DNA from: a virus
Lineage: Duplodnaviria; Heunggongvirae; Uroviricota; Caudoviricetes
Virus record (IMG/VR): IMGVR_UViG_3300045988_148039
DNA: 49,193 nt
Reading direction: 5' to 3' (one strand)
Shown: piece by piece, positions 11,066-27,750 of the stretch
Position numbering within the stretch: the stretch's first letter is position 1
How the letters are laid out: every line of letters starts with the position of its first letter
Position numbers and translations under genes: made by a program
The notes under the pieces: model-generated
The model's input: only the letters and a program-made list of their open reading frames with translations
The model's database searches: none
Told to the model about the DNA's origin: nothing

Positions 11066-11173
11066 CTCCGGTTTAACCAGGGCGGGTATCGCTCGGTTTC
11101 GGGTATAACCATAGGAAATTTTTTCCCACCTGTAAAGCACTTTTTATATAAATCTATAATTATATAATTCTAT
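11066..11173 (-). promoter_or_regulatory. Conserved promoter/leader cassette, copy A (AT-rich palindromic motif plus ~75-nt leader ending in the RBS)
   Basis: Near-identical to 18236..18345 and 27641..27750; contains TATAAATCTATAATTATATAA and ends ...CCGGAGA just before the ATG at 11057. Confidence 0.7.
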
Positions 11174-11757
11174 GACATTTGCCAGAGAGCATCATGCAAC
11201 TGGATACCTCCGTTGCACTGGTTGCCCCAGCCATGCCAGCCATCAGGTAAATCACCGCGAGCAAACAGCTCAATACGAGGAACATCGCCTAACAGCTTTA
11301 CCAGCTTGTCACGGACCACATCAGGCTTCCGAGAATGCTCCAGACGAGGCGATGTAAACGACTGAATGATCCCCGCATCAAGACGGGTCGGCAGTTTGCC
11401 TTTTACCGCAAACAAGCAGTCTTCACTGTTTGCACGAGTCATATGCCCCATCCCCATCACCAGCTTATCTGGTTGTCGGCTACCACATTTGTTCCATGTG
11501 AAGCCCTTCATGGTCATCAGCCTGAATCCCCATGCTTTCACCACCAGCAACGCTTCTTCTGGCTGAGTCGGAACCCACCACATGGCCAACAAACACGATT
11601 CAGGATTAGCAAGCTGCCAGACAGGAATACGAGCAATCTCCTCAGCTTTCATCGTTGGATACTTAAAACCAGCTCCACGATTCCCATCCTTACACTTGTC
11701 TTTGTATTCCCAGGGGGGATCTGCATAAATCAGATTAAACAATGCAATTTCCTCCAT
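11170..11757 (-). CDS. MT-A70-family N6-adenine DNA methyltransferase
   Basis: 195 aa with N-terminal catalytic DPPW motif (LIYADPPWEY). Confidence 0.75.
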   Translation of the reverse strand: MEEIALFNLIYADPPWEYKDKCKDGNRGAGFKYPTMKAEEIARIPVWQLANPESCLLAMWWVPTQPEEALLVVKAWGFRLMTMKGFTWNKCGSRQPDKLVMGMGHMTRANSEDCLFAVKGKLPTRLDAGIIQSFTSPRLEHSRKPDVVRDKLVKLLGDVPRIELFARGDLPDGWHGWGNQCNGGIQLHDALWQMS

Positions 11758-12065
11758 GTTAATTGTGCCTCCGGCGCTTATCTCCGGCAGTCATAACGCT
11801 GGCCAGCTCTACAGCAAACACAACGAAAAGGGCACTAACCAGACTGATTAATACCCTTGCCTGTTGTGTGCCGGATATCGCCCGACAACGCTGTTTTGGT
11901 AACACGGCTACAGTTCCGTGCCGCTCCAGCTTTTACCCCTTTGCGGATAACAGGCCCTGCCTGTACTCACTAACCAACGGCTTCCCGAAATGTGCACCAG
12001 GCACGCATAAAGATGAGCACGAAGAAGTAACTCCACCGCGCTTATCTTTATGTGTGAGGGTGAAT

Positions 12066-12141
12066 TGGTGGCCCCTACCGGATTTGAACCGATGACCGTG
12101 CGATTATGAGTCGCCTGCTCTAACCACTAAGCTAAGGGGCC
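12066..12141 (-). tRNA. tRNA, anticodon CAT (Met, or lysidine-modified minor Ile2 given resemblance to E. coli ileX as I recall it)
   Basis: Reverse complement folds as a cloverleaf: 7-bp acceptor stem GGCCCCT/AGGGGCC, T-arm with TTCAAAT loop, anticodon loop CTCATAA, encoded 3' CCA. Confidence 0.8.
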
Positions 12142-12270
12142 ATATTTGATTTGTTTGTCTGGTGTGGCGCCGCGCACGAAAATCCCAGCCAATAAATTCA
12201 GGATTTTTGGGCGCGGCGGCATATCAGACAAACATGGTTGATGCGTGCGCCCATGAGAAAAGCGCATAGA

Positions 12271-12310
12271 ATGTTGTAACTATATATTTATATAATTATA
12301 GAAATATATA
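12271..12310. promoter_or_regulatory. AT-rich palindromic motif copy (TTATATAATTATAGAAAT) just downstream of the lysis genes
   Basis: Same motif family as in cassettes A-C, read directly. Confidence 0.4.
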
Positions 12311-12520
12311 TTACTTTCGGCAGTTGATTTCCCATGCCCTGTTATGAGCCAGAATATCTTTCTTTGTCTGGCGGTCCATAACATCGATGTCGTGATCAGT
12401 CAGGTAGATGGGCTTTACCCAATCACAGGCGGTATCAACCACCACCGGGACGCTTCCACGACTCCCGCAGCTCGCGATCAACATCGTCATCAGCCATATG
12501 GTTAACACTCTGCTGTACAT
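12311..12520 (-). CDS. o-spanin (Rz1-like outer-membrane lipoprotein)
   Basis: 69 aa with lipobox-like LIASC after a hydrophobic N-terminus; overlaps the 3' end of the i-spanin gene in another frame. Confidence 0.55.
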   Translation of the reverse strand: MYSRVLTIWLMTMLIASCGSRGSVPVVVDTACDWVKPIYLTDHDIDVMDRQTKKDILAHNRAWEINCRK

Positions 12521-12713
12521 TACCCACCTCTTTTGTCACTTCTATACGCCGCTCCGCAGTGGCTTTTACGGCGGCTGCATTCTCATTAATGCGCTGCTTT
12601 TCAGCTTCATCTTCGGCCTTTTCTCGCCCTTTCATACGACCAAAACCAAACGCGCCGAATGCAACCAATATAATTGTGCCAATAAATGACAACACGGCCT
12701 TCAAACCAGTCAT
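12435..12713 (-). CDS. i-spanin (Rz-like)
   Basis: 92 aa: N-terminal transmembrane segment then charged helical region; directly downstream of the endolysin. Confidence 0.55.
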   Translation of the reverse strand: MTGLKAVLSFIGTIILVAFGAFGFGRMKGREKAEDEAEKQRINENAAAVKATAERRIEVTKEVGNVQQSVNHMADDDVDRELRESWKRPGGG

Positions 12714-13252
12714 ACCACCACTCGCTCTTTCATCCAGCCGTAGACAAACGACTCATTAGCCTCGCGCTTCTCCGCCAACTCCAGATAGCGTTCGCCCTGC
12801 GTACAGTTCAGCGACGTCAGCATCACCCGTTCGCCGTCTTTTCCCCGATTCCCAAGATAAGCACGCAGCGCATTAATGGTACGTGGACCGATTCGTCCGT
12901 CTGCATCCAAATCGGGATACAGCTTCCCGCGCAGGTTGAACACATTCAGCCAGCGTTGAAGCATTTTTGACGCCACTGTTGGCCCCATGTTCACCCCCGT
13001 GTCACACAGCTCTGCGGCAATATCAGAGGATAATGCGGCCACCTGATCAAAGCGTGGTCCGTACCAGTAATCAGCCTCAAGGATTTCCAGTGCCTGTTCG
13101 CGGGTTAAATCGCGCATATCGCCACGGTATCCATGAGCACGGGCAGTGTTCTGAGTAATGCCCCACTTTGTTGGGCCTCCCTTGTCGTCAGGGTGATCCA
13201 CATAGCCGCCCTCTTTTCCAAGAACGCTGTTAAAAATCTCATCTTTGGTCAT
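12710..13252 (-). CDS. Endolysin (glycoside hydrolase family 108-like with peptidoglycan-binding domain)
   Basis: 180 aa with N-terminal EGGYVDHPDDKGGPTKWGIT motif; sits between holin-like and spanin genes. Confidence 0.8.
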   Translation of the reverse strand: MTKDEIFNSVLGKEGGYVDHPDDKGGPTKWGITQNTARAHGYRGDMRDLTREQALEILEADYWYGPRFDQVAALSSDIAAELCDTGVNMGPTVASKMLQRWLNVFNLRGKLYPDLDADGRIGPRTINALRAYLGNRGKDGERVMLTSLNCTQGERYLELAEKREANESFVYGWMKERVVV

Positions 13253-13535
13253 GATTAAACCCTAATGCGTCAACTATCCGCGCCAGATTGCCCCTGAAAT
13301 ACAGAACAACGATGCAGATAATCAGATTTCCAATAACCACCAGCCAGTGGGATTCTTGATAAAGACCGAACACATAACGGAAGGGAACATTGGCGTATAC
13401 AATGACGTAGATATAAGCCAGAAAGGAAACAAATGGACGATGCCTGGAGTCTTTCCGTCGATAAAGCATCAGCGCCATTACTATTACTGTGCAAAGCACC
13501 GCATTAATCAGTGCTGACGGGTCACTGCTTACCAT
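13239..13535 (-). CDS. Holin-like membrane protein (second membrane protein of the lysis cassette)
   Basis: Internal ATG at 13535 preceded by GGAGGGGG; three predicted hydrophobic helices. Confidence 0.45.
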   Translation of the reverse strand: MVSSDPSALINAVLCTVIVMALMLYRRKDSRHRPFVSFLAYIYVIVYANVPFRYVFGLYQESHWLVVIGNLIICIVVLYFRGNLARIVDALGFNHDQR

Positions 13536-13917
13536 TTGAACCCCCTCCACGTAAGCGGGAAAGCATTCCAAAGATGCTACCGAGATCCTGGCTGTTTACG
13601 AACGTGAGGATTTTAATGGTCAATGCAGCCACAATAACCGCACCAAGCGCATCCAGAGGACGATCGTTGTAGCTGGTCCATTTGGCAAGAAATGAGCCAA
13701 CTAACGGCGCTCCAATCACTCCAACAATGAACGATGTAAAGAAATAGCCAATCAGCTTGAGACGGCTAATATTCACCGCTGTAGCAACATAGAAAACAGC
13801 GCCAGCAAATGCCCCGAATACAACGCCGTAATCAATACCAGTTGCAATACCAAAAACACTGGCACCCATCAGGCCACCAGCAGCAACGGCCGTACCGGAA
13901 ATTGGTTCTGCTGACAT
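13522..13917 (-). CDS. Putative holin
   Basis: Start chosen at internal ATG 13917 with GAGGA RBS; Gly/Ala-rich multi-helix membrane protein upstream of the endolysin. Confidence 0.5.
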   Translation of the reverse strand: MSAEPISGTAVAAGGLMGASVFGIATGIDYGVVFGAFAGAVFYVATAVNISRLKLIGYFFTSFIVGVIGAPLVGSFLAKWTSYNDRPLDALGAVIVAALTIKILTFVNSQDLGSIFGMLSRLRGGGSNGKQ

Positions 13918-14106
13918 TGAAATCCTCGTTAAAAAAAAGCCCCGCCGAAAAGGCAGGGCTTCATAAAGCAACAAATTACGCGGTAATCGCTTAACGCAGT
14001 TTTACTACGTTAAATGAAACACTACACCCAGTTACCACCTAAAACAAGGTTTCTCCATAAAAAAAACCTTCAAAACGTGGTTAATCGATCAATAAAAAAA
14101 CAATAC

Positions 14107-14382
14107 TCACAGTAGTGCAGAAAAGAATAGCGGCTTAACTGCTTTCCTCACCTCACTAGCATACATCCCCGCAGCTATCTCAGTTGTGAACAAACGCCCT
14201 CCAACTAGCCATGCAACAGGTGCAGATGCCAGGGATGCCAATGCAATTTCATCGGTAGCAAGCTCTCTTTCAAGATACTCACGAAATCCGGGGTTAATAG
14301 TTACCGTATCCAACATTCTCTGGCGCGCCACCTTACGTTCACGAATATGGGCGATCAATTGCTCTTTGGTAAAAGTAGCCAC
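14107..14382 (-). CDS. Hypothetical protein
   Basis: 91-aa ORF, co-oriented. Confidence 0.35.
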   Translation of the reverse strand: MATFTKEQLIAHIRERKVARQRMLDTVTINPGFREYLERELATDEIALASLASAPVAWLVGGRLFTTEIAAGMYASEVRKAVKPLFFSALL

Positions 14383-14385
14383 AGG

Positions 14386-14886
14386 TTATCCCTTCCCATC
14401 TTTGACTGTGCGATCAGCTTTTTCGCGTTTATGGCTCTCATAAAACCATCGGTGAAGCTCCATTAGCTCTTTATCAATAGGCTCATATTCACGGTCAAAA
14501 TATGCCTGAGCATCTTTTTCATCTTCACTCGGTAACTCACCAGGACCAAACAAAGTGTTATAAATCCACATCAGTGCATTTTCTGCATTACCAGTTTCTC
14601 TCCATTCAATAATGGCAGCGCGCATAACCAGGAGGTTTTTGCCAAAGAACAGATCGAGTTCTTTAAATCGCTTACGAATATATTCGTTTTCGCCTTCAAG
14701 AGCTGCGATGCGCTTATCTTTGCCTTCCTGCTCGTCCAGTAGTGCCAGCATAGCCTCTGGAGTTGCTAAATCCTGCCAGTTATCTGACGTGTCGCTTGCA
14801 GTTCGCAGCATAATTTCTTCTTCTGCTGCCTCACGTAGCGCCAGTGTGTCGATGTTGCTCATTGTGCCTCCTCGATTTCGTCCCAT
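14386..14886 (-). CDS. Ead/Ea22-like protein (paralog)
   Basis: Shares N-terminal ALREAAE...LLALLDE with 15089..15616; assignment to the lambdoid ea22-like family is from memory. Confidence 0.45.
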   Translation of the reverse strand: MGRNRGGTMSNIDTLALREAAEEEIMLRTASDTSDNWQDLATPEAMLALLDEQEGKDKRIAALEGENEYIRKRFKELDLFFGKNLLVMRAAIIEWRETGNAENALMWIYNTLFGPGELPSEDEKDAQAYFDREYEPIDKELMELHRWFYESHKREKADRTVKDGKG

Positions 14887-15092
14887 TCCACCCAGGCATT
14901 CTCTCCATCAGCATCGATTTCACCTTTGTGACCGCATTTGGAACAGACGGCCTCATCACCCGCCCACAAAGAATCTTTGGTTACCGACCATCCTGTTACC
15001 TTGGCTTTGCCGTGCTGGCACTTAGGGCAATCATCAAGCCATTCGACTTCGACTGTTGAAGGACCAAATCCATGTTCAGTTCGGATGCTCAT
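14859..15092 (-). CDS. Small zinc-ribbon protein
   Basis: 77 aa with CPKC...CSKC cysteine pairs. Confidence 0.4.
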   Translation of the reverse strand: MSIRTEHGFGPSTVEVEWLDDCPKCQHGKAKVTGWSVTKDSLWAGDEAVCSKCGHKGEIDADGENAWVEWDEIEEAQ

Positions 15093-16806: not shown

Positions 16807-17105
16807 GCCACAGCCCCTCTCAACGGCTTAACTTTGGCTAATAAGGTGTTAAACAACATGGAGTTAGGATTCATGCCAAATGGCAATTCCGGTTTAGCGG
16901 AGTAGTACAGGCAACCATTTATTTTCCTGGTTGTTATCTGTCCTTCGGCAACCATGCTTCTCAGTCTGCAACGCATAGAGTTCTGCGACACACCAATGTG
17001 CTCCGCGATTACGTCCACTTTTGAACATGGGTGATCGGTCAGGAAATTAATCACATCTTGGGGGTTAATAATTTTGCGTTTCATTGTCGAGGCGTCCTTA
17101 TACAT
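16803..17105 (-). CDS. Putative winged-helix DNA-binding protein
   Basis: 100-aa ORF with HTH-like middle segment; AT-rich motif copy directly upstream. Confidence 0.45.
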   Translation of the reverse strand: MYKDASTMKRKIINPQDVINFLTDHPCSKVDVIAEHIGVSQNSMRCRLRSMVAEGQITTRKINGCLYYSAKPELPFGMNPNSMLFNTLLAKVKPLRGAVA

Positions 17106-17150
17106 TTATATAAATATATAATTCTATATACGGCGGGAGACATCCCGCCG
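17101..17150. promoter_or_regulatory. AT-rich motif copy plus GC hairpin (CGGCGGGA-gaca-TCCCGCCG)
   Basis: Read directly; lies between the stop of 17162..18229 and the start of 16803..17105. Confidence 0.4.
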
Positions 17151-17161
17151 TAGGCTTACTG

Positions 17162-18229
17162 TCAGGCTTTCAATAGCGATTCTTTCAGATATCGGGCATC
17201 AGCCAGGGCGTTTGGAGTAATCTTGCGAACCCATGCATTACGGGTTGGACTCCACTTAAAGGCGCGTGATTTAAGCAGCGAACGAATGTTTGCCTCTGGT
17301 TTGCCAGGGAAATAAAACAGGATGCGGTTATCCTCTGGATCTATCTCCATAGAAAAGCCGTCGTATTCTTCGCGCTGTGCTCCTGTTACAGACTTGACCG
17401 ATTCAAGCTCTTTAATACGGCTCTGTAGTCGTTTGATTTCGGCGTTATTGTTACTCAGTGAGTATGAAGGAAAGCCAATGTGCCCACAGAAATCTCCGGC
17501 CAGTAACTCTTTGGCTTCGCTTTCTGTAAACCTGAGATCGATTAATGCAGAAAGCTGCTGTAATTGGTCTTTTTTGTATTTGCGAATGACCTTATTTGCG
17601 GCCTTCATTTTGATGTGTGACTTCATGCAGCCTTGCAGCTTACGAAGCAACTTAAATAGCGCATCAGGATCATCAGACGAAACTCCATTACGGCCGACAC
17701 CTGCGGCTTTGCTCTCGTAGTGTGATGCTTTACTTTCGCATTCAACAAACGCTTTTCTGAATAACGCATCAGCTTTAGACAAACGGCGGCGATGGCCTTT
17801 CGCGCTATAATGGTCAACTAAAATCGGCTGGCCTAACGGGATCACATCCAACAGGTCATGCGCTCGCTTATGCGCCACCGCACCTTCTTTTCTGGCTTTT
17901 TCTGCACAAGCAATATATCGGGCAAGACGCGCGTTCTGGCGTTCCTGATAGGTATTTACGTAATCATCTCCGCGCTGCTGCTGTTCAAGCCATGCTTTGC
18001 GCAGCTTTTCTGTTACGTCTACCAACTCCGCAGGGATACAACCTGTTTGGGATTCATAAGAGTGACCATCCTCATAAAGACGTCCATCGTCTTCAACAAA
18101 GAAAAAGGTTTCGTGCTCATCGCTTTTGACCATACGGCCATTAACATGACGTAATCTATAGCCAGTATCAGTGCTTAACAGGCTGTTAGGGTTGTTGATC
18201 CAGTCAGAAATAATTACTTGTTTATTCAT
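17162..18229 (-). CDS. Hypothetical protein (first gene behind repeat cassette B)
   Basis: Start taken at internal ATG 18229 (MNKQVII...) preceded by GGAGA of the conserved leader; the longer ORF to 18283 would run into the leader. Confidence 0.5.
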   Translation of the reverse strand: MNKQVIISDWINNPNSLLSTDTGYRLRHVNGRMVKSDEHETFFFVEDDGRLYEDGHSYESQTGCIPAELVDVTEKLRKAWLEQQQRGDDYVNTYQERQNARLARYIACAEKARKEGAVAHKRAHDLLDVIPLGQPILVDHYSAKGHRRRLSKADALFRKAFVECESKASHYESKAAGVGRNGVSSDDPDALFKLLRKLQGCMKSHIKMKAANKVIRKYKKDQLQQLSALIDLRFTESEAKELLAGDFCGHIGFPSYSLSNNNAEIKRLQSRIKELESVKSVTGAQREEYDGFSMEIDPEDNRILFYFPGKPEANIRSLLKSRAFKWSPTRNAWVRKITPNALADARYLKESLLKA

Positions 18230-18235
18230 CAGATT

Positions 18236-18345
18236 TCTCCGGTTTAACCAGGGCGGGTATCGCTCGGTTTCGGGTATAACCATAGGAAATTTTTTCCCAC
18301 CTGTAAAGCACTTTTTTATATAAATCTATAATTATATATTTATAG
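18236..18345 (-). promoter_or_regulatory. Conserved promoter/leader cassette, copy B
   Basis: Near-identical to copies A and C; its AT-rich part extends into a longer near-palindrome ATCTATAATTATATATTTATAGAT. Confidence 0.7.
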
Positions 18346-18400
18346 ATTTTCCGATGTTCCCGATGTCTACAAATCACTAAAACAGCTCAAAATGACACTT

Positions 18401-18778
18401 TCACTCTCTTCTCTTTTTCAAGTAGTCGACAACATACGCCCTGGCCTTTGCCAGCTTCCGGCGATACTGTCTGAGACTAAGAGAAAGGGCGTGGGCTTTA
18501 TCAATATGCGGTGCATTTATGTCGAGGCCCCGAATCTCCCACGCCCCGTATTCAATTCGGACAACCAGCGCCGCAGTCTCATCAACTACCGTGAGGGCCG
18601 TCACCGCTCCCTCTATACTGGTTTCCAGTGAGTCATTTGGTGCACCGCCCCCTCCGGTAAACTGGCAGCGCGTAACCATCATCATTTCTAACATCGACGC
18701 GAAACCGCTACGGGCGTTGCAGCCATTGCGCACCCACAGCGCCCATAGCTCAAACAAGCTATCCAGATCGCGTCTCAC
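18401..18778 (-). CDS. Hypothetical protein (possible antiterminator Q-like, from position only)
   Basis: 125-aa ORF just upstream of cassette B; functional guess is positional. Confidence 0.3.
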   Translation of the reverse strand: MRRDLDSLFELWALWVRNGCNARSGFASMLEMMMVTRCQFTGGGGAPNDSLETSIEGAVTALTVVDETAALVVRIEYGAWEIRGLDINAPHIDKAHALSLSLRQYRRKLAKARAYVVDYLKKRRE

Positions 18779-20770: not shown

Positions 20771-20888
20771 ACCACGATATGTGGTATTAAAACCACATAT
20801 CGTGAGTTTTTCAATGGGCGAAACAAAAAATAACCTTCTATTTGTGGTCCACCTCTCGTCTTACCATGTGAAAACCACTAAATGTGGT
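20771..20888. promoter_or_regulatory. Immunity operator region with ACCAC-N5-GTGGT palindromes
   Basis: ACCACGATATGTGGT (20771..20785), a 13-bp perfect inverted repeat CACGATATGTGGT/ACCACATATCGTG with 6-bp spacer (20773..20804), and ACCACTAAATGTGGT (20874..20888). Confidence 0.6.
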
Positions 20889-20925: not shown

Positions 20926-21582
20926 ATGAAAAGCAACGACGAGAACATCAAGAAAGAAATAGGTCTGCGCATTCAGACTCTACGGAAACAATCCGGCATG
21001 ACTGCCGGAGATCTCCAGCAAGTCACTGGAATAGGCTTAAGCACCTTGCAGAACTATGAGGCCGGATTAAGACAACCATCTATACCTGCCATCAAGAAAA
21101 TCGCGCACGCCCTGAAAGCATCAGCGCCTTATATCGCGTGCTTAACAGATAACCCGTTCCTACCCCAGAATACTAACGCTCCTGTTATTCCTGGGCTTGT
21201 AGCTATAAAAAATGACATAGCATCGCACGCCGGAGAAAAGCCAGTGCTGGCGATAGAACAGGAGATTCTACGAAGCAAGAACATCAACCCATCGTCTCTG
21301 TCAGTTCTCCAGAGCAACGATGAGTTAATGTCACCAACAATATCCCCTGGCTCCCAAGTCCTGATTAATACAGACGATACAGAGATTCATGAGGGGATCT
21401 ATGCCCTTGAAGACAGAAATGGCCTGGTTGTTTTGAGGCACTGTAGAGTCATACCGGGTGACAATGCTGTTATGCTGTCAACCGAAAGGGATGCTGAAAT
21501 GAACACTAAGCATCTGAATAACGAGGAATTTAAGCGTTATAAAGTTCTTGGCCGCGTAGTTAGTGTTGTCAACTGGTTATGA
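20926..21582 (+). CDS. cI-like repressor (N-terminal XRE HTH, C-terminal LexA/S24-like autocleavage domain)
   Basis: 218 aa; HTH segment GMTAGDLQQVTGIGLSTLQNYEAG; S24-like C-terminal region with candidate Ser (ELMSPT) and Lys (KRYKVLGRV). Confidence 0.75.
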   Translation: MKSNDENIKKEIGLRIQTLRKQSGMTAGDLQQVTGIGLSTLQNYEAGLRQPSIPAIKKIAHALKASAPYIACLTDNPFLPQNTNAPVIPGLVAIKNDIASHAGEKPVLAIEQEILRSKNINPSSLSVLQSNDELMSPTISPGSQVLINTDDTEIHEGIYALEDRNGLVVLRHCRVIPGDNAVMLSTERDAEMNTKHLNNEEFKRYKVLGRVVSVVNWL

Positions 21583-21624: not shown

Positions 21625-21639
21625 ACCACATTTTGTGGT
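21625..21639. promoter_or_regulatory. Additional ACCACATTTTGTGGT operator next to a TTGACA -35 element
   Basis: Read directly, downstream of a CACGGC-gaaa-GCCGTG hairpin that follows the cI stop. Confidence 0.5.
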
Positions 21640-21674
21640 TTTGACAACATGTAAAAGTATAAAAGAGGCTACGC

Positions 21675-22049
21675 ATGGAATTACATACAGCCAATAAAAA
21701 CGAAACTCTGATCACTGCTGGAATCGAAATCCAAGCGTTGAACATAGCGATTGAGTGTATGTTATGCCAAATCATTGATAATGAAAAAGATATCGACTGG
21801 ATAGAATCTATCCTTCATCTGGCATCAGAACAAAAAGTCTGCCTCAAAACGGCCTTACAATACGATGTGCCAGCGGTATCGAAGCTGTGCCAGCCATTGA
21901 TGGCATATAACAGGGCTATTATTTCTGTATGCCTCATGATTCTTGATGAAAACACCCCTCTTAGCGACCGCTCAGAAGCTGCTCTAACACTCTCACGTAA
22001 ACAGCGACAGCTAGCAAATCAACTGATATCAACGATAGCTGACCTCTGA
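21675..22049 (+). CDS. Hypothetical protein downstream of cI
   Basis: 124-aa ORF with an AGAGG RBS. Confidence 0.4.
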   Translation: MELHTANKNETLITAGIEIQALNIAIECMLCQIIDNEKDIDWIESILHLASEQKVCLKTALQYDVPAVSKLCQPLMAYNRAIISVCLMILDENTPLSDRSEAALTLSRKQRQLANQLISTIADL

Positions 22050-22075
22050 CTGAAAGCGGGCTAACGCCCGCTTAT

Positions 22076-22180
22076 ATGATTATAGATTTATATAATTATA
22101 TAAAACGCTTTTCATCCGCCAAAAAGTTGGTTATGCTTACCTCGTTCTATAAATATAGATTTATAGAATTATATAACCAA
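22076..22180. promoter_or_regulatory. Two AT-rich palindromic motif copies upstream of the ParA-type gene (candidate centromere/operator)
   Basis: TTATAGATTTATATAATTATATAA and TCTATAAATATAGATTTATAGAATTATATAA read directly. Confidence 0.5.
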
Positions 22181-22184
22181 ACAC

Positions 22185-22853
22185 ATGGAGTCTCGACAAA
22201 TGACTATCTCTGTAGGTATTTTCAACGGAAAAGGCGGCGTAACCAAATCAACAATTGCCCGTGCTTTAGCAGTTGCTTATGCAAAGGCCGGCTGGAATGT
22301 ATGCCTGATCGATATGGATGTGCTTAACGGAACGGTAACGCGTTGGGTACAACGCAGAATGGCCAACAATATCGAACCTGCAATCGCGGCGCAGCCGTGC
22401 GGCACGCCATCACAAGTCCAGAAAATCATCGAATCAGAAGTATACGACCTGGTTATCGTCGATGGCGGTGCCTACGCATCTGAATCAGTACCGAAGCTCT
22501 CTGAATTTCTGGATATGGTTATTTTGCCAACCAGATTCTCTACCGATGACCTGGAAACCACCGTTAACACAGCTCATGGCATCGTTAAAAAGGGTGTGCC
22601 AATCAAGAAAATTTGCATGGTGTTCTCAGGCGCGGCTGAAAACGAAGCCGACTACATTGAAGCCCAAGAGTACCTGGCTAATACGCCATACTTTGTTGTC
22701 GATAAGTACATTCCCCACAAGCCAGCTCTGAGCAAAGCTCAGGATAAGGGCTTAAGCCTCATTGAATGCTCATACGTTGCGCCACGCAAAAAGGCAGACG
22801 ACGTTATTCAGGGGATTATCAACCAGCTTGAGGCTCTGACTACTGCCGCGTAA
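22185..22853 (+). CDS. ParA/ParF-type partition ATPase
   Basis: 222 aa with deviant Walker A NGKGGVTKST. Confidence 0.75.
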   Translation: MESRQMTISVGIFNGKGGVTKSTIARALAVAYAKAGWNVCLIDMDVLNGTVTRWVQRRMANNIEPAIAAQPCGTPSQVQKIIESEVYDLVIVDGGAYASESVPKLSEFLDMVILPTRFSTDDLETTVNTAHGIVKKGVPIKKICMVFSGAAENEADYIEAQEYLANTPYFVVDKYIPHKPALSKAQDKGLSLIECSYVAPRKKADDVIQGIINQLEALTTAA

Positions 22854-22854
22854 T

Positions 22855-22893
22855 ATATAATTATAGTTTTATAGATTTATATAAGAGGGGATA
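22855..22893. promoter_or_regulatory. AT-rich palindromic motif copy between the ParA-type and RHH genes
   Basis: TAATATATAATTATAGTTTTATAGATTTATATAA read directly. Confidence 0.45.
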
Positions 22894-22896
22894 CAC

Positions 22897-23145
22897 ATGG
22901 CCGCACCATCAAAACCACCAAAGAAGAACAGCAAAGGCGTACCGCCATCGATCGAACAACCGCAGGTTTTCGACCCGACTGAAACGCCAGCCAGAACCAA
23001 ATCAGGTGGGGCACAAATGGCGTTTAACGTCGACCCTGAATTTAAACGCGAGTACAAAACGTTCGCCAGCTCAATGGATATGTCATTGAAAGAAGTGCTG
23101 ACAAAATCTTTTGAGTTACTCAAGGCTCAATACAACCAGAAGTAA
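22897..23145 (+). CDS. Ribbon-helix-helix DNA-binding protein (ParG-like partner of the ATPase)
   Basis: 82 aa: Lys/Pro-rich N-terminal tail then RHH-like C-terminus; immediately downstream of the ATPase gene. Confidence 0.5.
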   Translation: MAAPSKPPKKNSKGVPPSIEQPQVFDPTETPARTKSGGAQMAFNVDPEFKREYKTFASSMDMSLKEVLTKSFELLKAQYNQK

Positions 23146-23174
23146 GAGAAGGTGACGGCCTCCAGCGCCAACTG

Positions 23175-23357
23175 TTGGCCGTCGCGACACAACAAGGGGA
23201 ATTTGTTATGTCCGAGCAACAATATACACGGTTACTGAAAACTCGTCTAACCGACCTCAAACGGCTGCAAGCTGGTCGCTTATTTGCCCTGCTATCCACC
23301 AGGCCAGAATGGGTACGTGAAGCAGTTCTGAAAGGCTTAATGCGCTCCAGCGTTTAA
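23175..23357 (+). CDS. Hypothetical small protein
   Basis: 60-aa ORF. Confidence 0.3.
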   Translation: MAVATQQGEFVMSEQQYTRLLKTRLTDLKRLQAGRLFALLSTRPEWVREAVLKGLMRSSV

Positions 23358-23366
23358 ATTCAACCA

Positions 23367-23389
23367 TAAAAAAGGCCCCCGAAGGGGCC
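23367..23389 (-). terminator. Rho-independent terminator (GGCCCC-GAA-GGGGCC with run of T on the minus strand)
   Basis: Perfect GC hairpin preceded on the plus strand by AAAAAAA; read directly. Confidence 0.6.
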
Positions 23390-23395
23390 TAATCG

Positions 23396-23518
23396 CTACT
23401 TGCTGCTAATGTTTATCGTCACATTCAGAGCGTTATCAGTAATCTTCCAACCCTCCCCATGTGGCGTAAACAAAGCTCCAGTAACAACGATAAAAATACA
23501 CATACAGTATTTTTTCAT
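23396..23518 (-). CDS. Small hydrophobic peptide (about 40 aa)
   Basis: Internal ATG at 23518 gives MKKYCMCIFIVVTGALFTPHGEGWKITDNALNVTINISSK; terminator immediately downstream. Confidence 0.3.
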   Translation of the reverse strand: MKKYCMCIFIVVTGALFTPHGEGWKITDNALNVTINISSK

Positions 23519-23916
23519 TGTATGGCCCTTACAGGCCGTTTCACGGCATCCCCACCGACGAAAACAACGCGAGAGCAAGCACGGCTGCTTGTGCTTGCAT
23601 GTACGGCAACGGAGAATCCTCCCCTAAAGTCGGTGCCCGGGTGCGAATCGGCGGGAAGGTCCACAGGTATTTTACGATTATTTTAAGATTAGTAATAGGA
23701 AAGAAATTAAACGAAAAAACTCGTTTATTTTCACAAAATCAGTAACCTACCCACAATCTGTGAGTTTGCAGGCACAACAAGAACCACAATTTTTTGAAGC
23801 ATAATAGTGGACTATTATTACCTTTTGGGTAAAATTAACTTGCTGCTTGTGCTTGCGTGGTTGTTTATACAACAACGTAATGCTGAAAGGACCGCGAATC
23901 CGATCAGCACGAAAGA

Positions 23917-23943
23917 ACCGTCCTCAATAGGGCGGTTTTTTTG
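23917..23943 (+). terminator. Rho-independent terminator-like hairpin (ACCGTCCT-caat-AGGGCGGT then T7)
   Basis: Read directly in an ORF-poor region upstream of the antirepressor. Confidence 0.45.
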
Positions 23944-24034
23944 TTTCTGCCTACCAATAAACCCACGCTATGTGGTTGTCTCTGTTAAAATCCCGCCGTA
24001 TTGACATGAATGCGCCATTGGTGGACACTTTCCG

Positions 24035-24110
24035 AGCCGTAGCAAAATCTACGGTCGGGATTAGCCTCCTGAATAACACGATGGCGCATACCGCGTTAGC
24101 GGTTTTTTTA
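24035..24110 (+). ncRNA. Candidate small antisense RNA (immI/C4-like position upstream of the antirepressor)
   Basis: TTGACA at 24001..24006; about 75 nt with hairpin CCGTAG-caaaatc-TACGG and a 3' hairpin plus T-run at 24090..24109; GATTAGCCTC at 24058 recurs at 24224 next to the following ORF. Confidence 0.3.
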
Positions 24111-24235
24111 TGCGTAGAGCACTGTTACGCCCAAATTATGGTGGGTCGTACAGGGGCGGAGAAATCCGCGCCGGTTCGTCATTGTGTCCGGTAAGGCTAA
24201 CCCTGTACGGCTCACCACCATTTGATTAGCCTCGA

Positions 24236-24463
24236 ATGGCGGTGATAGTTCCATATACTGGAGATATCACAATGACAAACCTACCCCATGACTATTACGT
24301 CAACCTCGTAAAGATCCTTCTCAAGAAAGCCTCATACGCCGATAAATTCCGCCTGGCTGAAATCATCGAGCGCGAAGCTATGCGCATCGCCAGCAACGAT
24401 AACGCTGTTTCTGACGCAAAAATCTCCCTCGTAACCAAAGTAGTTATGGGAGGTGCAAAATGA
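24236..24463 (+). CDS. Small protein upstream of and overlapping the antirepressor start
   Basis: 75-aa ORF; stop overlaps the antirepressor ATG. Confidence 0.35.
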   Translation: MAVIVPYTGDITMTNLPHDYYVNLVKILLKKASYADKFRLAEIIEREAMRIASNDNAVSDAKISLVTKVVMGGAK

Positions 24464-25611
24464 AAACGCTTCGGACCGTTAACACCCTACAGCCTATCCT
24501 GCATAATCAGATTCCAGTAATCACAACTGAGCTACTCGCCCGCCTTTATGGAACAGAAGCAATCCGTATACAGCAAAATCACCATGAAAATAAAACTCGG
24601 TTCATTGAGGGGAAGCACTTCTTTAAAGCTGTTGGTGATGAACTCAAAAATTTGCGACTAGTTTTAAACGAGTCACAAAATGAGGTACAAATTTCCCCCA
24701 AAACTCGCTCTCTCATCCTCTGGACAGAACGTGGGGCTGCACGTCACGCTAAAATGCTCGAAACCGATCAGGCGTGGGATGTGTTCGAACGTCTGGAAGA
24801 CTGCTATTTCAGCCAGAACGCGCAAACGGCCGCGACCGTAACCGTCTCACCAAACAATGCTCGTGAGGTTGTCGATACGCTCAACGCCAAACCAATGTAT
24901 TACGTTAAGGTGTGCAACAACGAGCCACTCACAACCTCAGCCGATGTTGCCCAAGCATTCAGCACCACAAACAATTCCATCGTTATGGCCATCGATGCGT
25001 TACGCATTCCTCGCACGGCTGCGGCGCGTCACTTCTTTAAAGAACAACGACCGCTGGAAGGAAGCGACCGCGAAATAACAATCTATCGCATGACAAAAGA
25101 CGGATTTACCTTGCTCATGGAGAGTATCGACGGTCCAGGCGTGAAAGATATCAAGCTGGCCTACATTGAAGCCTTTAACGCTATCAGCAGCGTGTTAAAA
25201 ACACAGTACGAGCGTGATCTGGCTAAACGACTGTACCAGGAAAAAACGATTATCCGCGCGGCAACAGAGCATAATCGGCTATTAACGGAACCGAACTACA
25301 GGAAGGAACTAATAAAGGAGTTTGACAAGGCAACAGGGAAAACCAAAGCGGCGCTAAATCTGCCAGCAATGACTCAGGAAAATGTGATATCAGCCTTACT
25401 TCTTGATCTGCTCAGAAACGCCAGAGCACTTATCAGCTTTGACGAAAATCTGAACCCTCAGCTCAAACTACTACCACCGACAGGCAAAGTAGTCGACCAA
25501 GCTGATCACAACAGCATACTCAGCGTACTGGATGCAAACCTGCCAGCCAAGACACTACAGGAACTGATAAAAATATCTGCGGATAAACTGGCCGCAGGTG
25601 CAAAACCATAA
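24460..25611 (+). CDS. Antirepressor-like protein
   Basis: 383 aa; domain assignment (KilA-N/ORF6N-like N-terminus, Rha-like middle) is from memory of those families. Confidence 0.6.
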   Translation: MKTLRTVNTLQPILHNQIPVITTELLARLYGTEAIRIQQNHHENKTRFIEGKHFFKAVGDELKNLRLVLNESQNEVQISPKTRSLILWTERGAARHAKMLETDQAWDVFERLEDCYFSQNAQTAATVTVSPNNAREVVDTLNAKPMYYVKVCNNEPLTTSADVAQAFSTTNNSIVMAIDALRIPRTAAARHFFKEQRPLEGSDREITIYRMTKDGFTLLMESIDGPGVKDIKLAYIEAFNAISSVLKTQYERDLAKRLYQEKTIIRAATEHNRLLTEPNYRKELIKEFDKATGKTKAALNLPAMTQENVISALLLDLLRNARALISFDENLNPQLKLLPPTGKVVDQADHNSILSVLDANLPAKTLQELIKISADKLAAGAKP

Positions 25612-25645
25612 AACAAAGCGCCCGATTTGGGCGCTTCTTCAATTC

Positions 25646-26281
25646 TTAATATTTCGGTGTAATCAGTAGCGATACATGCCCTGATTTGTCACGAGAAACG
25701 TAATACTCGCCTCTCTTAGTCTTGAACTCAGCTTTCTGCATATCAGATTTAACAATCTGCTCTAACTGCGCAATCACGGTGTCTCTTTCACTTGACGCAT
25801 CCAAGACTTCAACTGCTACGGCCATAGAAAGCAAGGAATCAGAGTTAGGCTTGGATACTCGCCATAATAACTCAGAAATCTTTCCATCCTTATCAACTCT
25901 AGCCCGACCGTTAACAGATGAGTTGATGGCAAATTCAACGGTGTTGTTACCTTGTTTAACAGACTTAATTCTTATAGTGGAGGTGGCTTTTCCTGATGTA
26001 GCGATGCCTTCAAGGTCATCATTATATAACTGCTTAAACTTATCTACGGTCACACCATCAAAAGCAGCTCCGGTGGTAGCCGTAGTGCTGGAGTCTTCTG
26101 GGATCAAGGTCACAGCCGCAAGAGTATTAACAACTACAAAAGTAGCAATCCCGAGAAAGCCACTCACTAAAACAGCTTTGAACCTACTACCAGAAGACGA
26201 GGCACATTGTTTCCGATATGCGCCACGAACTACGAAGAAACACAAAATCAGGCTAATAATAAACGCCACCAGCATCCCCAT
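25646..26281 (-). CDS. Membrane protein with two N-terminal transmembrane helices
   Basis: 211 aa; hydrophobic segments LVAFIISLILCFFVV and GFLGIATFVVVNTLAAVTLI, then a Ser/Thr-rich soluble domain. Confidence 0.5.
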   Translation of the reverse strand: MGMLVAFIISLILCFFVVRGAYRKQCASSSGSRFKAVLVSGFLGIATFVVVNTLAAVTLIPEDSSTTATTGAAFDGVTVDKFKQLYNDDLEGIATSGKATSTIRIKSVKQGNNTVEFAINSSVNGRARVDKDGKISELLWRVSKPNSDSLLSMAVAVEVLDASSERDTVIAQLEQIVKSDMQKAEFKTKRGEYYVSRDKSGHVSLLITPKY

Positions 26282-26343
26282 AGAAATCTCCTTTTAGATA
26301 TAAGGGTAAAGCAATATCGTATTAGATCTTCCTTTAGACACAA

Positions 26344-26357
26344 CCCCCCCTCCCCCC
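26344..26357. repeat. Homopolymeric tract CCCCCCCTCCCCCC
   Basis: Read directly, 63 to 76 bp upstream of the membrane-protein start codon. Confidence 0.8.
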
Positions 26358-26841
26358 ATACAGGGTGCCCTTTACCGGAGTTCCGGCCCCTTCTCAAAAG
26401 CATCAAAAAAAGCTCGAGATCGAGTACCGGAACTCATGCCACCAGATAGCTCCACATCGTTTCCAATGCTTCGCCGCCGTGTGCGCCCTGTGGCCCACAA
26501 TCATGCCATTGGTCGTCTGATATACCTTCTTCTGCTCATTGAGCACAGGCGAGTTGTCGCACTCCTGCCTTTCTCAGACTCGACTTAGTTTAGATCGCTG
26601 TTCCTGGCTTGCGTCAGCACACTTCCCCCTTGTACGCATACCCGCGCGCCACTTCGCCCAAAAACACCGAACCCAACGAAGTGGCAAAGACAACGACGCG
26701 AGCGTGAGTCTGAAATGGGCACCAGTAAAAAAGGGGTTGCAGGCGCAAAAAGATTTGATTATCTTTAGACGCAAGAAAGCCGCCCCAATCAAGAGGTGTC
26801 TTTTTAAATCCAGCCTACCAAGCAAGATTTAAATTTCAGAC

Positions 26842-26866
26842 TGAAAACCGCCCGGCAAGGCGGTTT
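26842..26866. terminator. Bidirectional terminator-like hairpin (AAAACCGCC-cggcaa-GGCGGTTTT)
   Basis: Perfect 9-bp stem flanked by an A-run and a T-run; downstream of the HTH gene. Confidence 0.6.
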
Positions 26867-26916
26867 TTGTCTTTCTGGCGCTTACATTACACCACCATAA
26901 AACGATCCGTAAAGGA

Positions 26917-27189
26917 TCATTTGATCCCTTGTTCCAATTCTGACGACACTTTAACCTTTTCCCATACAAGGGTTTGCAGCCTTAACAGAATCGCATCTTT
27001 ATCAAGGTGTGAAAGATCCTTAACCATATCGTCAAACGACAGAACGCGAATGGCCATCTCAATGACCCTCGGCGGCTCCCCCTTCTCATATCGCTTATAT
27101 GTAGCCAACGATATCCCAAATTCTTCGGCGGCTCGCTCCTGCGTCCAGTTCATCCCACGACGCCATAATTTCAATTCATAACCCGTCAT
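26917..27189 (-). CDS. XRE-family HTH regulator
   Basis: Start at ATG 27189 with GGAGG RBS; HTH segment WTQERAAEEFGISLATYKRYEKGE. Confidence 0.55.
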   Translation of the reverse strand: MTGYELKLWRRGMNWTQERAAEEFGISLATYKRYEKGEPPRVIEMAIRVLSFDDMVKDLSHLDKDAILLRLQTLVWEKVKVSSELEQGIK

Positions 27190-27218
27190 AGCATCCTCCG
27201 CGCACAATATTAACACTC

Positions 27219-27243
27219 GCAAAGTGTCAAAATGACACTTTGC
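27219..27243. promoter_or_regulatory. Perfect 11-bp inverted repeat GCAAAGTGTCA-aaa-TGACACTTTGC (candidate operator)
   Basis: Read directly about 30 bp upstream of the HTH gene start. Confidence 0.55.
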
Positions 27244-27252
27244 GCATTGTGT

Positions 27253-27633
27253 TTACTTAACGAGGAATAAAAATGGTTTATTGTTAGGCGGTGTAATCGG
27301 GGCTGGCTCGCTTTTGCTCATGCGATCAGTGTACCAGGCCAGCTCCTTGTCAAAGTAAGCCTGATTAAAATAGGCCATGAATGTAGTTTCAAATCCATAA
27401 CGACCGCTAATACGCAGCATCTGATTGCCGTTCTCTGTTTCCAGATATACCTGGGCACGTTCCTGATTCTCCTTCAGCCAGGTTAAAGCCTCGTCGCACG
27501 AGGACACACGATACTCATCATCGTAGCCGTCATCGATGCGGCTTGAAGAAGAACGGCAAATCACGCCAACAGAACCAGCCAGGATAGTTTGAATTTTAAG
27601 GAAAGCGTTTTTGCGGATTTTGATCATGCTCAT
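27253..27633 (-). CDS. Hypothetical protein (first gene behind repeat cassette C)
   Basis: 126-aa ORF; ATG preceded by GGAGA of the conserved leader. Confidence 0.45.
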   Translation of the reverse strand: MSMIKIRKNAFLKIQTILAGSVGVICRSSSSRIDDGYDDEYRVSSCDEALTWLKENQERAQVYLETENGNQMLRISGRYGFETTFMAYFNQAYFDKELAWYTDRMSKSEPAPITPPNNKPFLFLVK

Positions 27634-27640
27634 CGGGTTT

Positions 27641-27750
27641 TCTCCGGTTTAACCAGGGCGACTATCGCTCGGTTTCGGGTATAACCTTAGGAAATTTTTT
27701 CCCACCTGTAAAGCAGTTTTTATATAAATCTATAATTATATAATTCTATG
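27641..27750 (-). promoter_or_regulatory. Conserved promoter/leader cassette, copy C
   Basis: Differs from copy A at a handful of positions over about 105 bp; read directly. Confidence 0.7.

What the first reader, a model, noticed from the sequence alone, without database searches (positions are those of the whole stretch)
11066..27750. A ~105-bp promoter/leader cassette present three times, plus a dispersed AT-rich palindromic motif
Three near-identical ~105-bp blocks (11066..11173, 18236..18345, 27641..27750) sit immediately upstream of three unrelated minus-strand genes. Each contains TATAAATCTATAATTATATAA followed by a ~75-nt leader that ends in GGAGA and the start codon, so three different proteins would share one 5' UTR. 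The AT-rich motif alone recurs at further intergenic sites (12271..12310, 17101..17130, two copies at 22076..22180, 22855..22893). That layout resembles the dispersed repressor operators of phage P1, or a shared RNA-level control element. Which protein (cI-like, RHH, other) binds is not determinable from sequence.
Basis: seen in the sequence. Interest (0 to 1): 0.85.

Follow-up and report, generated by a model that had tools for sequence, protein, structure and literature searches.

The report
Triplicated lytic promoter cassette with partition-protein arrays
A phage that lives as a plasmid in E. coli starts three of its lytic gene blocks from the same strictly conserved promoter-plus-leader unit, each preceded by an array of 8-bp AT-rich repeats that most likely binds the plasmid's own partition protein, which would tie plasmid maintenance to control of the lytic genes.

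Summary
Three near-identical ~120-bp units sit on the minus strand, ending at start codons 11057, 18229 and 27633. Each unit reads: a 32-bp array of four 8-bp repeats (TTATAKAW), a 6-8 nt A-tract linker, a sigma-70 promoter (TTTACA-17-TA[T/A]GGT), and a ~43-nt leader with one hairpin and GGAG. Five more such arrays occur; all eight are intergenic.

The contig is a circular IncFII-RepA phage-plasmid. The cassette is in 72 of 5,426 complete E. coli genomes, typically three copies.

The cassette is functional. Against a Salmonella relative, four-fold sites differ at 54%, yet the 33 fixed leader positions are identical in every copy.

The arrays are not cI operators. Those are ACCAC-N5-GTGGT, which is itself dispersed. 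The arrays flank the parA promoter. Their unit changes between lineages together with the putative beta-strand of the small ParG-like protein encoded after parA.

The leader's role is not settled. My best inference is a loading site for a 125-aa protein with a phage-21-Q-like fold, encoded just upstream of cassette 2, because strong terminators lie inside the cassette-driven operons. No sigma-dependent pause element is present. An RNA-level role is the main rival.

I rate this a new variant of known kinds.

The parts
11055..11175 (-). Cassette 1: array, promoter, leader and ATG of the 89-aa gene. It heads the ~27-kb late (morphogenesis) operon.
18227..18347 (-). Cassette 2: array, promoter, leader and ATG of the 355-aa DUF3560 gene. 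It lies 53 nt downstream of the Q-like gene.
27631..27751 (-). Cassette 3: array, promoter, leader and ATG of the 126-aa gene. It follows the terminator at 27760-27782.
11144..11175 (.). Array 1 (4 x 8 bp), about -75 to -44 of the cassette-1 promoter. It overlaps the MT-A70 stop codon.
18316..18347 (.). Array 4 (4 x 8 bp), upstream of the cassette-2 promoter.
27720..27751 (.). Array 8 (4 x 8 bp), upstream of the cassette-3 promoter.
12280..12311 (.). Array 2, abutting the stop codon of the Rz1-like gene, about 140 nt upstream of tRNA-Met.
17098..17129 (.). Array 3, between a GC hairpin (17131-17152) and the SD of the MarR-like gene. There is no room for a promoter behind it.
22072..22103 (.). 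Array 5, about -73 to -42 of the parA promoter. Geometry is the same as in the cassettes.
22109..22137 (+). parA promoter, TTTTCA-17-TATGCT.
22145..22176 (.). Array 6, about +1 to +32 of the parA transcript.
22853..22884 (.). Array 7, in the intergenic region between parA and the 82-aa gene, ending just before the SD.
11131..11136 (-). -35 hexamer TTTACA of cassette 1 (c2: 18302-18307; c3: 27707-27712).
11108..11113 (-). -10 hexamer TATGGT of cassette 1 (c2: 18279-18284; c3: 27684-27689, TAAGGT).
11066..11100 (-). Invariant leader core GAAACCGAGCGATA-NN-CGCCCTGGTTAAACCGGAG, starting at the inferred transcription start. It contains the hairpin AACCG-A-GCG/AUANN/CGC-CC-UGGUU and the SD (c2: 18237-18271; c3: 27642-27676).
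22200..22853 (+). Small Walker-type ParA (the ORF is called from 22185; the likely start is 22200).
22897..23145 (+). 82-aa ParA partner, the proposed ParG/omega-like RHH protein that binds the arrays.
18401..18778 (-). 125-aa protein with a sigma-region-4 / phage-21-Q-like fold. It is the last gene of the cI-controlled early operon.
10546..10569 (-). Strong intrinsic terminator about 500 nt downstream of cassette 1, ahead of the rest of the late operon.
13936..13962 (-). Strong intrinsic terminator at the end of the cassette-2 operon, immediately before the lysis genes.
27218..27244 (-). 12-bp hairpin between the first and second genes of the cassette-3 operon.

Best explanation
Each cassette is a composite control unit at the head of one of three lytic transcription units of an IncFII-RepA phage-plasmid.

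(1) The 32-bp array of four 8-bp repeats is a binding site for the 82-aa protein encoded after parA. I propose this is a ParG/omega-type ribbon-helix-helix centromere-binding protein. The same arrays bracket the parA promoter, where they would give autoregulation and centromere function, and they sit at other operon junctions. In the plasmid-prophage state the protein would coat the arrays and damp or insulate the lytic promoters. Binding is inferred. The direction of the effect is inferred by analogy with omega of pSM19035.

(2) TTTACA-17-TA(T/A)GGT is an ordinary sigma-70 promoter. This is read from the sequence and is not mapped.

(3) The invariant leader begins at the inferred transcription start. 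It is a sequence-specific recognition element shared by all three transcripts. It most likely lets the Q21-fold 125-aa protein, made from the cI-repressed early operon, render RNA polymerase termination-resistant. Polymerase could then pass the terminators at 10546-10569 and 13936-13962 and express the lysis and structural genes. This step is the weakest link.
For: Anatomy and non-randomness.

Functional constraint: the window and pAR-0407-1 differ at 54% of four-fold sites (228/423, eight genes), yet the leader core is identical in all copies. Variation is confined to the discriminator, two loop bases and the SD-ATG spacer. The three copies in a genome share that lineage's variants.

Array binder:
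- Arrays flank the parA promoter with the same geometry as in the cassettes.
- The 8-bp period and mixed orientation match ParG sites (PMC3130281).
- The 82-aa protein follows a small ParA, has a disordered tail plus two helices and aligns in register with ParG 1P94 (P=0.0024).
- One homolog gives a weak HicB hit and one an AT-hook hit.
- Six beta-strand variants pair with six array types, including LLLRLD with GATATA..TATATC against LLLQLD with CATATA../..TATATG.
- cI is excluded by its own operators.

Antitermination:
- The gene sits in the lambdoid Q position, after the Ref nuclease and DUF1064 genes.
- Terminators lie inside the cassette operons.
- Relative L002 has an array, promoter, leader and terminator arrangement.
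Against: - No binding, transcript or antitermination data exist.
- Covariation is confounded by shared ancestry. The fast-evolving 124-aa protein next to parA also differs between lineages (58% between L064 and L065).
- The leader lacks a conserved -10-like pause element. Only 8 of 33 copies read GATAGT or GATACT there.
- No QBE-type direct repeat is evident in the promoter spacer.
- Relatives with a 60%-identical Q-like protein do not share the leader.
- The arrays lie upstream of -35 rather than over the core promoter, so repression is not guaranteed.
Confidence: 0.5

Rival explanations
1. The leader acts at the RNA level, independently of the Q-like protein. It could be a 5'-terminal stabilising hairpin, or a translational operator bound by a phage or host RNA-binding protein that co-regulates the first gene of each operon.
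For: - The conserved block begins at the inferred transcription start and ends at the SD.
- It folds into a hairpin that contains a G-U pair, and the tolerated changes fall in the loop.
- No sigma-dependent pause element is present.
Against: - The fold is only modestly better than shuffles: z = -2.3 for the 49-nt transcript, and z = -1.2 to -1.5 for the c2 and c3 stretches tested.
- Despite saturated neutral divergence there is no compensatory change. The stems are invariant, which points to sequence readout rather than structure alone.
- There is no Rfam match at E<=10.
- This reading does not explain the terminators inside the operons.
Confidence: 0.25
2. The arrays are activator or UP-type sites. 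A lytic-phase protein (the 125-aa sigma-R4-like protein, or the 124-aa protein) binds them and turns the cassette promoters on. The cassettes would then be activator-dependent late promoters, as with P1 Lpa or Mu C.
For: - The arrays occupy about -75 to -44, the classic class I / UP position.
- The -10 is imperfect (TATGGT or TAAGGT).
- The 125-aa protein has a sigma-region-4 fold.
- omega2 can activate weakly at low occupancy (PMC4627068).
Against: - The 125-aa protein and its HTH are well conserved (59-61%) across lineages whose arrays differ completely.
- Arrays also lie at +1 to +32 of the parA transcript and directly in front of SD sequences with no promoter behind them.
- The array-to-(-35) linker varies by 6-8 nt between copies, so helical phase is not fixed.
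- The promoter matches 9 of 12 consensus positions and should not need an activator.
Confidence: 0.12
3. One reading: the AT-rich motif is the dispersed operator of the immunity (cI-like) repressor, as with P1 C1.
For: - The motif is dispersed at promoters.
- The genome has a P1-type immI module with c4 RNA and an antirepressor.
Against: - The cI/early intergenic region contains four ACCAC-N5-GTGGT palindromes and no array.
- That palindrome is conserved at the same slots in the Salmonella lineage.
- In L004/L064/L065 the cI HTH and cI operators are unchanged while the arrays differ.
Confidence: 0.04
4. The three copies are merely recent duplications or gene-conversion tracts with no shared function beyond being promoters.
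For: - The triplicated promoter-leader is specific to one lineage. Relatives have arrays but different promoters.
- Copies evolve in concert.
Against: The leader core is identical between lineages whose neighbouring genes differ at 54% of four-fold sites. If each of the 33 fixed positions had the ~46% identity seen at four-fold sites, all 33 matching would have a chance of about 1e-11 per copy.
Confidence: 0.04

Closest known systems
TP228 ParF/ParG with the parH centromere and OF operator (type Ib partition)
   Same: Both have a small ParA-family ATPase followed by a small protein with a flexible N-terminal tail and a C-terminal (strand)-helix-helix. In both, the sites are arrays with an 8-bp period (a 4-bp box plus a 4-bp AT-rich spacer) in direct and inverted orientation, upstream of the par promoter, serving as operator and centromere (PMC3130281).
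   Different: Here the unit is wholly AT-rich (TTATAKAW) and the arrays are fixed at four units. Six of the eight arrays lie outside the par-promoter region (one in the parA/82-aa intergenic, five at phage operon junctions). Sequence similarity to ParG is marginal.
omega (RHH ParB) of pSM19035 / inc18 plasmids
   Same: One RHH centromere-binding protein recognises arrays of short unspaced repeats embedded upstream of several promoters (PcopS, Pdelta, Pomega). Those arrays double as parS sites, giving global co-regulation. The footprint is -72 to -21 (PMC4627068).
   Different: omega uses 7-bp heptads and controls plasmid housekeeping genes in Firmicutes. Here the extra targets are the lytic and late promoters of a myovirus-type phage-plasmid of Enterobacteria.
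Lambdoid Q antitermination at PR' (phage 21 Q; AlpA; BrrG)
   Same: The regulator is encoded at the end of the early operon, immediately upstream of a promoter whose operon contains intrinsic terminators. The fold is sigma-region-4-like, resembling Q21 (PMC6606751; 10.1101/2024.11.20.624540).
   Different: There are three identical loading cassettes rather than one PR'. There is no conserved -10-like pause element and no obvious direct-repeat QBE. The leader runs straight into an SD and start codon rather than into a promoter-proximal terminator. No Pfam Q family matches.
Phage-plasmid N15 with four separate SopB centromere sites (IR1-4)
   Same: Both are phage-plasmids whose partition-protein binding sites occur at several separate places in the genome rather than as one centromere (PMC7205306). 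That the N15 sites are dispersed among phage genes is from my own knowledge.
   Different: N15 uses a type Ia ParB (HTH) and single palindromes. Here the system is type Ib-like with RHH-type arrays positioned at fixed distances from promoters.
P1 C1 repressor with dispersed operators
   Same: In this genome the cI-type operator ACCAC-N5-GTGGT is dispersed: at the early promoter, the c4/ant region and repA. The genome also has a c4-type immI module.
   Different: This applies to a different motif from the one in the finding, and the repressor is LexA/cI-like rather than C1-like.

Membership tests
Type Ib partition system (ParA + RHH centromere-binding protein, ParG/omega type) | A small Walker-type ParA followed immediately by a small partner gene | tested here: met
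   ParA 22200-22853 (CbiA/ParA/MipZ, phrog_164) and the 82-aa gene at 22897-23145. The synteny is conserved in seven lineages.
Type Ib partition system (ParA + RHH centromere-binding protein, ParG/omega type) | The partner protein has an RHH fold with a flexible N-terminal tail | tested here: inconclusive
Type Ib partition system (ParA + RHH centromere-binding protein, ParG/omega type) | Arrays of short (7-8 bp period) repeats in direct and inverted orientation at the par promoter | tested here: met
   Arrays at 22072-22103 and 22145-22176 bracket TTTTCA-17-TATGCT. The same arrangement is seen in relatives.
Type Ib partition system (ParA + RHH centromere-binding protein, ParG/omega type) | [quoted passage not shown] | not testable with these tools
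   The only evidence is covariation of beta-strand residues with the array unit across six variants. This is confounded by the co-diverging 124-aa protein.
Lambdoid Q-type antitermination (Q protein + qut site) | A Q-family protein | tested here: inconclusive
Lambdoid Q-type antitermination (Q protein + qut site) | The regulator gene lies at the end of the early operon, directly upstream of the late promoter | tested here: met
   The gene at 18401-18778 is followed 53 nt later by cassette 2. It is preceded by the Ref nuclease and DUF1064 genes.
Lambdoid Q-type antitermination (Q protein + qut site) | A -10-like sigma-dependent pause element in the initial transcribed region (PMC6606751) | tested here: not met
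   The leader core has no TAnnnT. Only 8 of 33 copies read GATAGT or GATACT at the variable loop.
Lambdoid Q-type antitermination (Q protein + qut site) | A Q-binding element between -35 and -10 (PMC6606751) | tested here: inconclusive
   The spacer GGT(G/A)GGAAAA(A/T)ATTTCC contains an inverted repeat, GGAAA-N3-TTTCC. L004 and L065 have AGGAC-N5-GTCCT-like sequences at the same place. No direct repeat of the Q21 type is seen.
Lambdoid Q-type antitermination (Q protein + qut site) | Terminators downstream that must be read through for late-gene expression | tested here: met
   Terminators at 10546-10569 and 13936-13962, and a hairpin at 27218-27244.
   The cI/early intergenic region holds ACCAC-N5-GTGGT x4 and no AT array.
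Described RNA families (Rfam 15) | A match of the leader to any covariance model | tested here: not met
   There is no hit over any cassette at gathering thresholds, and none at E<=10 for 11030-11190.

The most novel reading that the evidence does not exclude
In this phage-plasmid family the partition centromere-binding protein would be the master silencer or insulator of the lytic transcription units. It would coat eight 32-bp arrays placed at operon heads and junctions, so plasmid copy number and partition status would feed directly into the lysis-lysogeny decision. In the E. coli/Salmonella lineage, escape from that state would use a triplicated antiterminator-loading cassette of a new type: a Q21-fold protein recognising an invariant transcribed leader with a hairpin, without a sigma-dependent pause.
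Probability: 0.3. Interest if true: 0.8.

Novelty: new variant of a known kind. Interest (0 to 1): 0.6.

Why it matters
Phage-plasmids must reconcile two lifestyles. How plasmid maintenance functions communicate with the lytic programme is largely unknown outside P1 and N15.

This work gives a sequence-defined, experimentally tractable case in an element carried by about 1.3% of complete E. coli genomes. It has eight identical-format arrays and a clear candidate binding protein. It also has a natural set of specificity variants, for example R versus Q in the beta-strand paired with G versus C in the box.

It further offers a non-coding leader under extreme purifying selection whose function is unknown. 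If the leader proves to be a loading site for a Q21-fold protein with no sigma-dependent pause element, it would broaden the definition of qut sites. If it acts as RNA, it is an undescribed phage cis-regulatory RNA.

Tried and rejected
1. C4 or isrK antisense RNA targeting the leader. Duplex energy is no better than for 25% of genome windows, and the c4 target boxes are absent from the leader.

2. A phage-encoded antisense partner. No complementarity of 12 nt or more exists, and 9-11-mers occur at chance frequency.

3. Known RNA families. None matched.

4. HK022 put-like or lambda nut-like elements. The leader has one short hairpin, no boxA match that I could see, and no N-like arginine-rich protein. 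This rests on my own knowledge and was not formally tested.

5. cI as the array binder. Rejected. The window-versus-Salmonella comparison did not discriminate, because both the cI operator and the array are retained there.

6. The 125-aa protein as the array binder. Unlikely, since it is 59-61% conserved while the arrays change completely.

8. A promoter-anchored scan of IMG/VR. It returned essentially the same loci as the leader-anchored scan (one extra contig-end fragment), so the promoter and leader never occur apart there.

9. A metagenome scan with loose anchors. It returned only chance matches, so no hairpin variants were obtained and no covariation test of the stem was possible.

10. 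Plasmid p0083-27kb. Its 26-nt match is a cassette-3 remnant truncated by IS26.

Full report
OBSERVATION

The three blocks exist as described. Aligned on the minus strand, they are near-identical from an AT-rich block to the start codon. The repeat finder reports 96% identity between copies 1 and 3 over 122 nt. Copy 2 differs mainly by a 1-nt indel.

The window is a circular contig: bases 1-77 equal 49117-49193. It is 97% identical over about two thirds of the queried 20 kb to three Yersinia myophages. It belongs to a family of 47-52 kb non-mobilizable plasmids of Escherichia, Salmonella and Klebsiella. Of the 65 plasmid records with a match, all but a few partial records carry three copies. 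The cassette is present in 72 of 5,426 complete E. coli genomes, with a median of 3 copies. Of 214 places, 211 are on plasmids, and no feature is annotated under any match listed.

ANATOMY

Reading 5' to 3' on the minus strand, each unit has four parts.

- An array of four 8-bp units, for example TCATAGAA TTATATAA TTATAGAT TTATATAA.
- A linker of 4-6 A followed by GTGC (CTGC or GCGC in a few copies).
- A promoter, TTTACA-17 nt-TA(T/A)GGT. It matches 9 of 12 consensus positions, and the promoter scan picks up the two copies that read TATGGT.
- A 7-8-nt discriminator and then an invariant 35-nt block, GAAACCGAGCGATA-NN-CGCCCTGGTTAAACCGGAG, followed by 7-8 nt and ATG.

By spacing from the -10 hexamer, the invariant block starts at the transcription start. 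This is inferred and not mapped.

The block folds into a modest hairpin, AACCG-A-GCG / AUANN / CGC-CC-UGGUU. For the 49-nt transcript the z-score is -2.3. For the c2 and c3 stretches tested it is -1.2 to -1.5.

The three genes served are unrelated. Cassette 1 heads the roughly 27-kb morphogenesis operon. Cassette 2 heads a roughly 4-kb block that ends at the lysis genes. Cassette 3 heads a short operon containing an HTH protein.

THE ARRAYS

The two-unit pattern occurs 45 times against 0.61 expected. It resolves into exactly eight arrays, each 4 x 8 bp and all intergenic, with none in 20 shuffles.

Three arrays belong to the cassettes. Two bracket the parA promoter TTTTCA-17-TATGCT. One of these is at about -73 to -42, the same geometry as in the cassettes, and the other is at about +1 to +32. 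One array lies between parA and the following 82-aa gene. One lies between a GC hairpin and the SD of a MarR-like gene. One abuts the Rz1 stop codon, upstream of tRNA-Met.

WHO BINDS THE ARRAYS

The cI/LexA-like repressor (20926-21582) does not bind them. Its divergent promoter region contains four 15-bp palindromes, ACCAC-N5-GTGGT, and no array. That palindrome recurs at 21625, 23962 and 30923, with 9 matches against 0.78 expected.

I fetched divergent relatives through homologs of the 125-aa protein. They keep the same gene order, and every one has 8-bp-periodic AT-rich arrays at matching places. The unit is specific to each lineage.

The putative beta-strand of the small ParA partner changes in step with the array unit:

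| Beta-strand | Array unit | Lineage |
|---|---|---|
| QM(A/S)FNVD | TTATAKAW | window, pAR-0407-1 |
| LLTFNID | TACATA/TATGTA | L063 |
| LLFRLD, LLLRLD | GATATA...TATATC | L004, L064 |
| LLLQLD | CATATA.../...TATATG | L065 |
| PLHFSVD | TAAATAAT/TTAATTAA | L005 |
| PLNFNVD | ATTTAATA-type | L002 |

L004, L064 and L065 share the cI helix and the cI operator (TTGTAGTCA/TGACTACAA), while the arrays differ between L064 and L065. That again excludes cI.

The 125-aa protein is 59-61% conserved, with a conserved HTH, across lineages whose arrays are unrelated.

The 82-aa protein has a disordered N-terminal tail and two C-terminal helices in the model. It aligns in strand-helix-helix register with ParG 1P94, at P=0.0024 and probability 12%. 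One homolog gives a weak HicB hit, and one from the L005/L002 lineage gives an AT-hook hit (KRGRGRPRK in the tail).

The anatomy matches TP228 ParG sites: boxes regularly separated by 4-bp AT-rich spacers, direct and inverted orientations, and one RHH dimer per box (PMC3130281). The use of such arrays upstream of several promoters matches omega of pSM19035, whose arrays are both operators and parS sites (PMC4627068).

There is one caveat. Covariation is confounded by shared ancestry, and the fast-evolving 124-aa protein between cI and parA cannot be excluded.

IS THE CASSETTE UNDER SELECTION?

Yes. Between the window and pAR-0407-1 (L029), four-fold degenerate sites in eight neighbouring genes differ at 54% (228/423), and the flanking proteins are 66-96% identical. 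Yet all three copies in both genomes share the leader core.

Across 33 full copies, variation is confined to five places.

- The linker A-tract length.
- The third base of the -10 hexamer.
- The discriminator (TATACCC, AGTAACCA or GACAACCA).
- The two loop bases (CC 23, GT 7, CT 1, AC 1, GC 1).
- The SD-ATG spacer.

Copies within one genome share that lineage's variants. The promoter half and the leader half never occur apart in IMG/VR. Invariant stems with no compensatory change, despite saturated neutral divergence, argue for sequence-specific readout rather than structure alone.

WHAT IS THE LEADER FOR?

Several possibilities are excluded.

- Known RNA families.
- C4 or isrK targeting.
- Any phage-encoded antisense partner.

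One line of evidence is positive but indirect.

- Strong intrinsic terminators lie inside the cassette-driven operons. One is at 10546-10569, about 500 nt after cassette 1. Another is at 13936-13962, just before the lysis genes. A 12-bp hairpin follows the first gene of cassette 3.
- The gene immediately upstream of cassette 2 is the last gene of the cI-controlled early operon, after the Ref nuclease and DUF1064 genes. It encodes a 125-aa protein modelled at pLDDT 77.
- That model's top 10 Foldseek PDB hits are all phage 21 Q (probability 0.63-0.98, E 0.1-0.5).
- Q21 is itself described as a sigma-region-4-like core with an additional helix (PMC6606751).
- Relative L002 has an array, promoter, about 70-nt leader and strong terminator before the next gene, which is a PR'-tR' layout.

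Three things count against a canonical qut site. No -10-like pause element is conserved. No Q21-type direct repeat is visible in the spacer, which instead holds an inverted repeat, GGAAA-N3-TTTCC. No Pfam Q family matches.

The triplicated promoter-leader is also specific to the E. coli/Salmonella lineage. In L004, L064 and L065 the array after the Q-like gene is followed directly by an SD.

VERDICT

The finding is real and functional. Most of it can be explained from known kinds of system. The arrays behave like type Ib partition-protein sites used as dispersed operators, in the manner of omega or ParG. The cassettes are the heads of the lytic operons and have been kept identical because all three must be read by the same trans-acting factor. 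That factor is most plausibly the Q21-fold protein.

Two aspects are new. A partition-type array is placed at phage lytic promoters. A long invariant transcribed leader is triplicated. I found no paper describing either.

Noticed in passing
window 20771-20785, 20792-20806, 20834-20848, 20874-20888, 21625-21639, 23962-23976, 30923-30937: The cI-type operator ACCAC-N5-GTGGT is itself dispersed. Four copies lie in the cI/early region. One lies before the 124-aa gene, one (with 1 mismatch) next to the isrK/C4 promoter region, and one just upstream of repA. This suggests the immunity repressor also controls immI and plasmid replication. The slots are conserved in pAR-0407-1.
   Followed up: partly
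window 24036-25611: A P1-type immI module: isrK-like RNA (24036-24109), C4 antisense RNA (24134-24222), a 75-aa ORF and a 383-aa Rha/ORF6N antirepressor. The c4 target boxes (GATTAGCCTC...) lie on both sides of C4.
   Followed up: partly
window 23368-23664 (-): A full-length Rfam ryfA match (142 bits) lies between the par locus and immI. This may be a small toxin/sRNA locus carried by the phage-plasmid.
   Followed up: no
window 21675-22049 (+): A 124-aa helical protein of unknown function (phrog_7632) sits between cI and parA. It is preceded by a cI operator and is the fastest-evolving protein of the region (17-24% identity between lineages). It could be a lytic-phase antagonist of the array-binding protein, or the binder itself.
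   Followed up: partly
window 22187-22202 and 17084-17100; L004, L064, L065 upstream of parA and after the Q-like gene: A conserved stretch, GGAGTCTCGACAA(A)TG / GAGACCTCGACAATG, lies between an array and the start codon of different genes. It is retained across lineages whose ParA proteins are only about 54% identical. It is more conserved than a plain SD region should be, and I have no explanation for it.
   Followed up: no
window 12066-12141 (-): A tRNA-Met (CAT) gene lies about 140 nt downstream of array 2, between the lysis cassette and the MT-A70 methyltransferase.
   Followed up: no
window 35165-35557: Three 93-nt direct repeats (73-100% identical) lie inside the 772-aa minus-strand ORF (33814-36132), in the tail region near the predicted Hin-type invertase (31068-31622, by synteny with L001).
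   Followed up: no
window 4846-5436, 6730-8109, 8103-8726 (-): By synteny with plasmid NZ_LR130559, three ParB/Srx N-terminal-domain proteins are encoded in the late operon downstream of cassette 1. They are separate from the ParA/82-aa partition pair.
   Followed up: no
L030 (NZ_CP140467.1, p0083-27kb): A conjugative cfr-carrying plasmid holds a HigBA module plus a remnant of cassette 3 (the array end and the -35 region), truncated by IS26.
   Followed up: partly
L004 1-115 and L065 440-560: The cassette-3-slot promoter of another lineage has its own conserved leader, GTCCTATTAT..CTCATCGGCYGGRCACA...TCAAGGCCAC. It has a CTCAT/ATGAG stem and a palindrome (AGGAC-N5-GTCCT) in the promoter spacer. 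A hairpin-bearing conserved leader may therefore be a general feature of this slot.
   Followed up: partly
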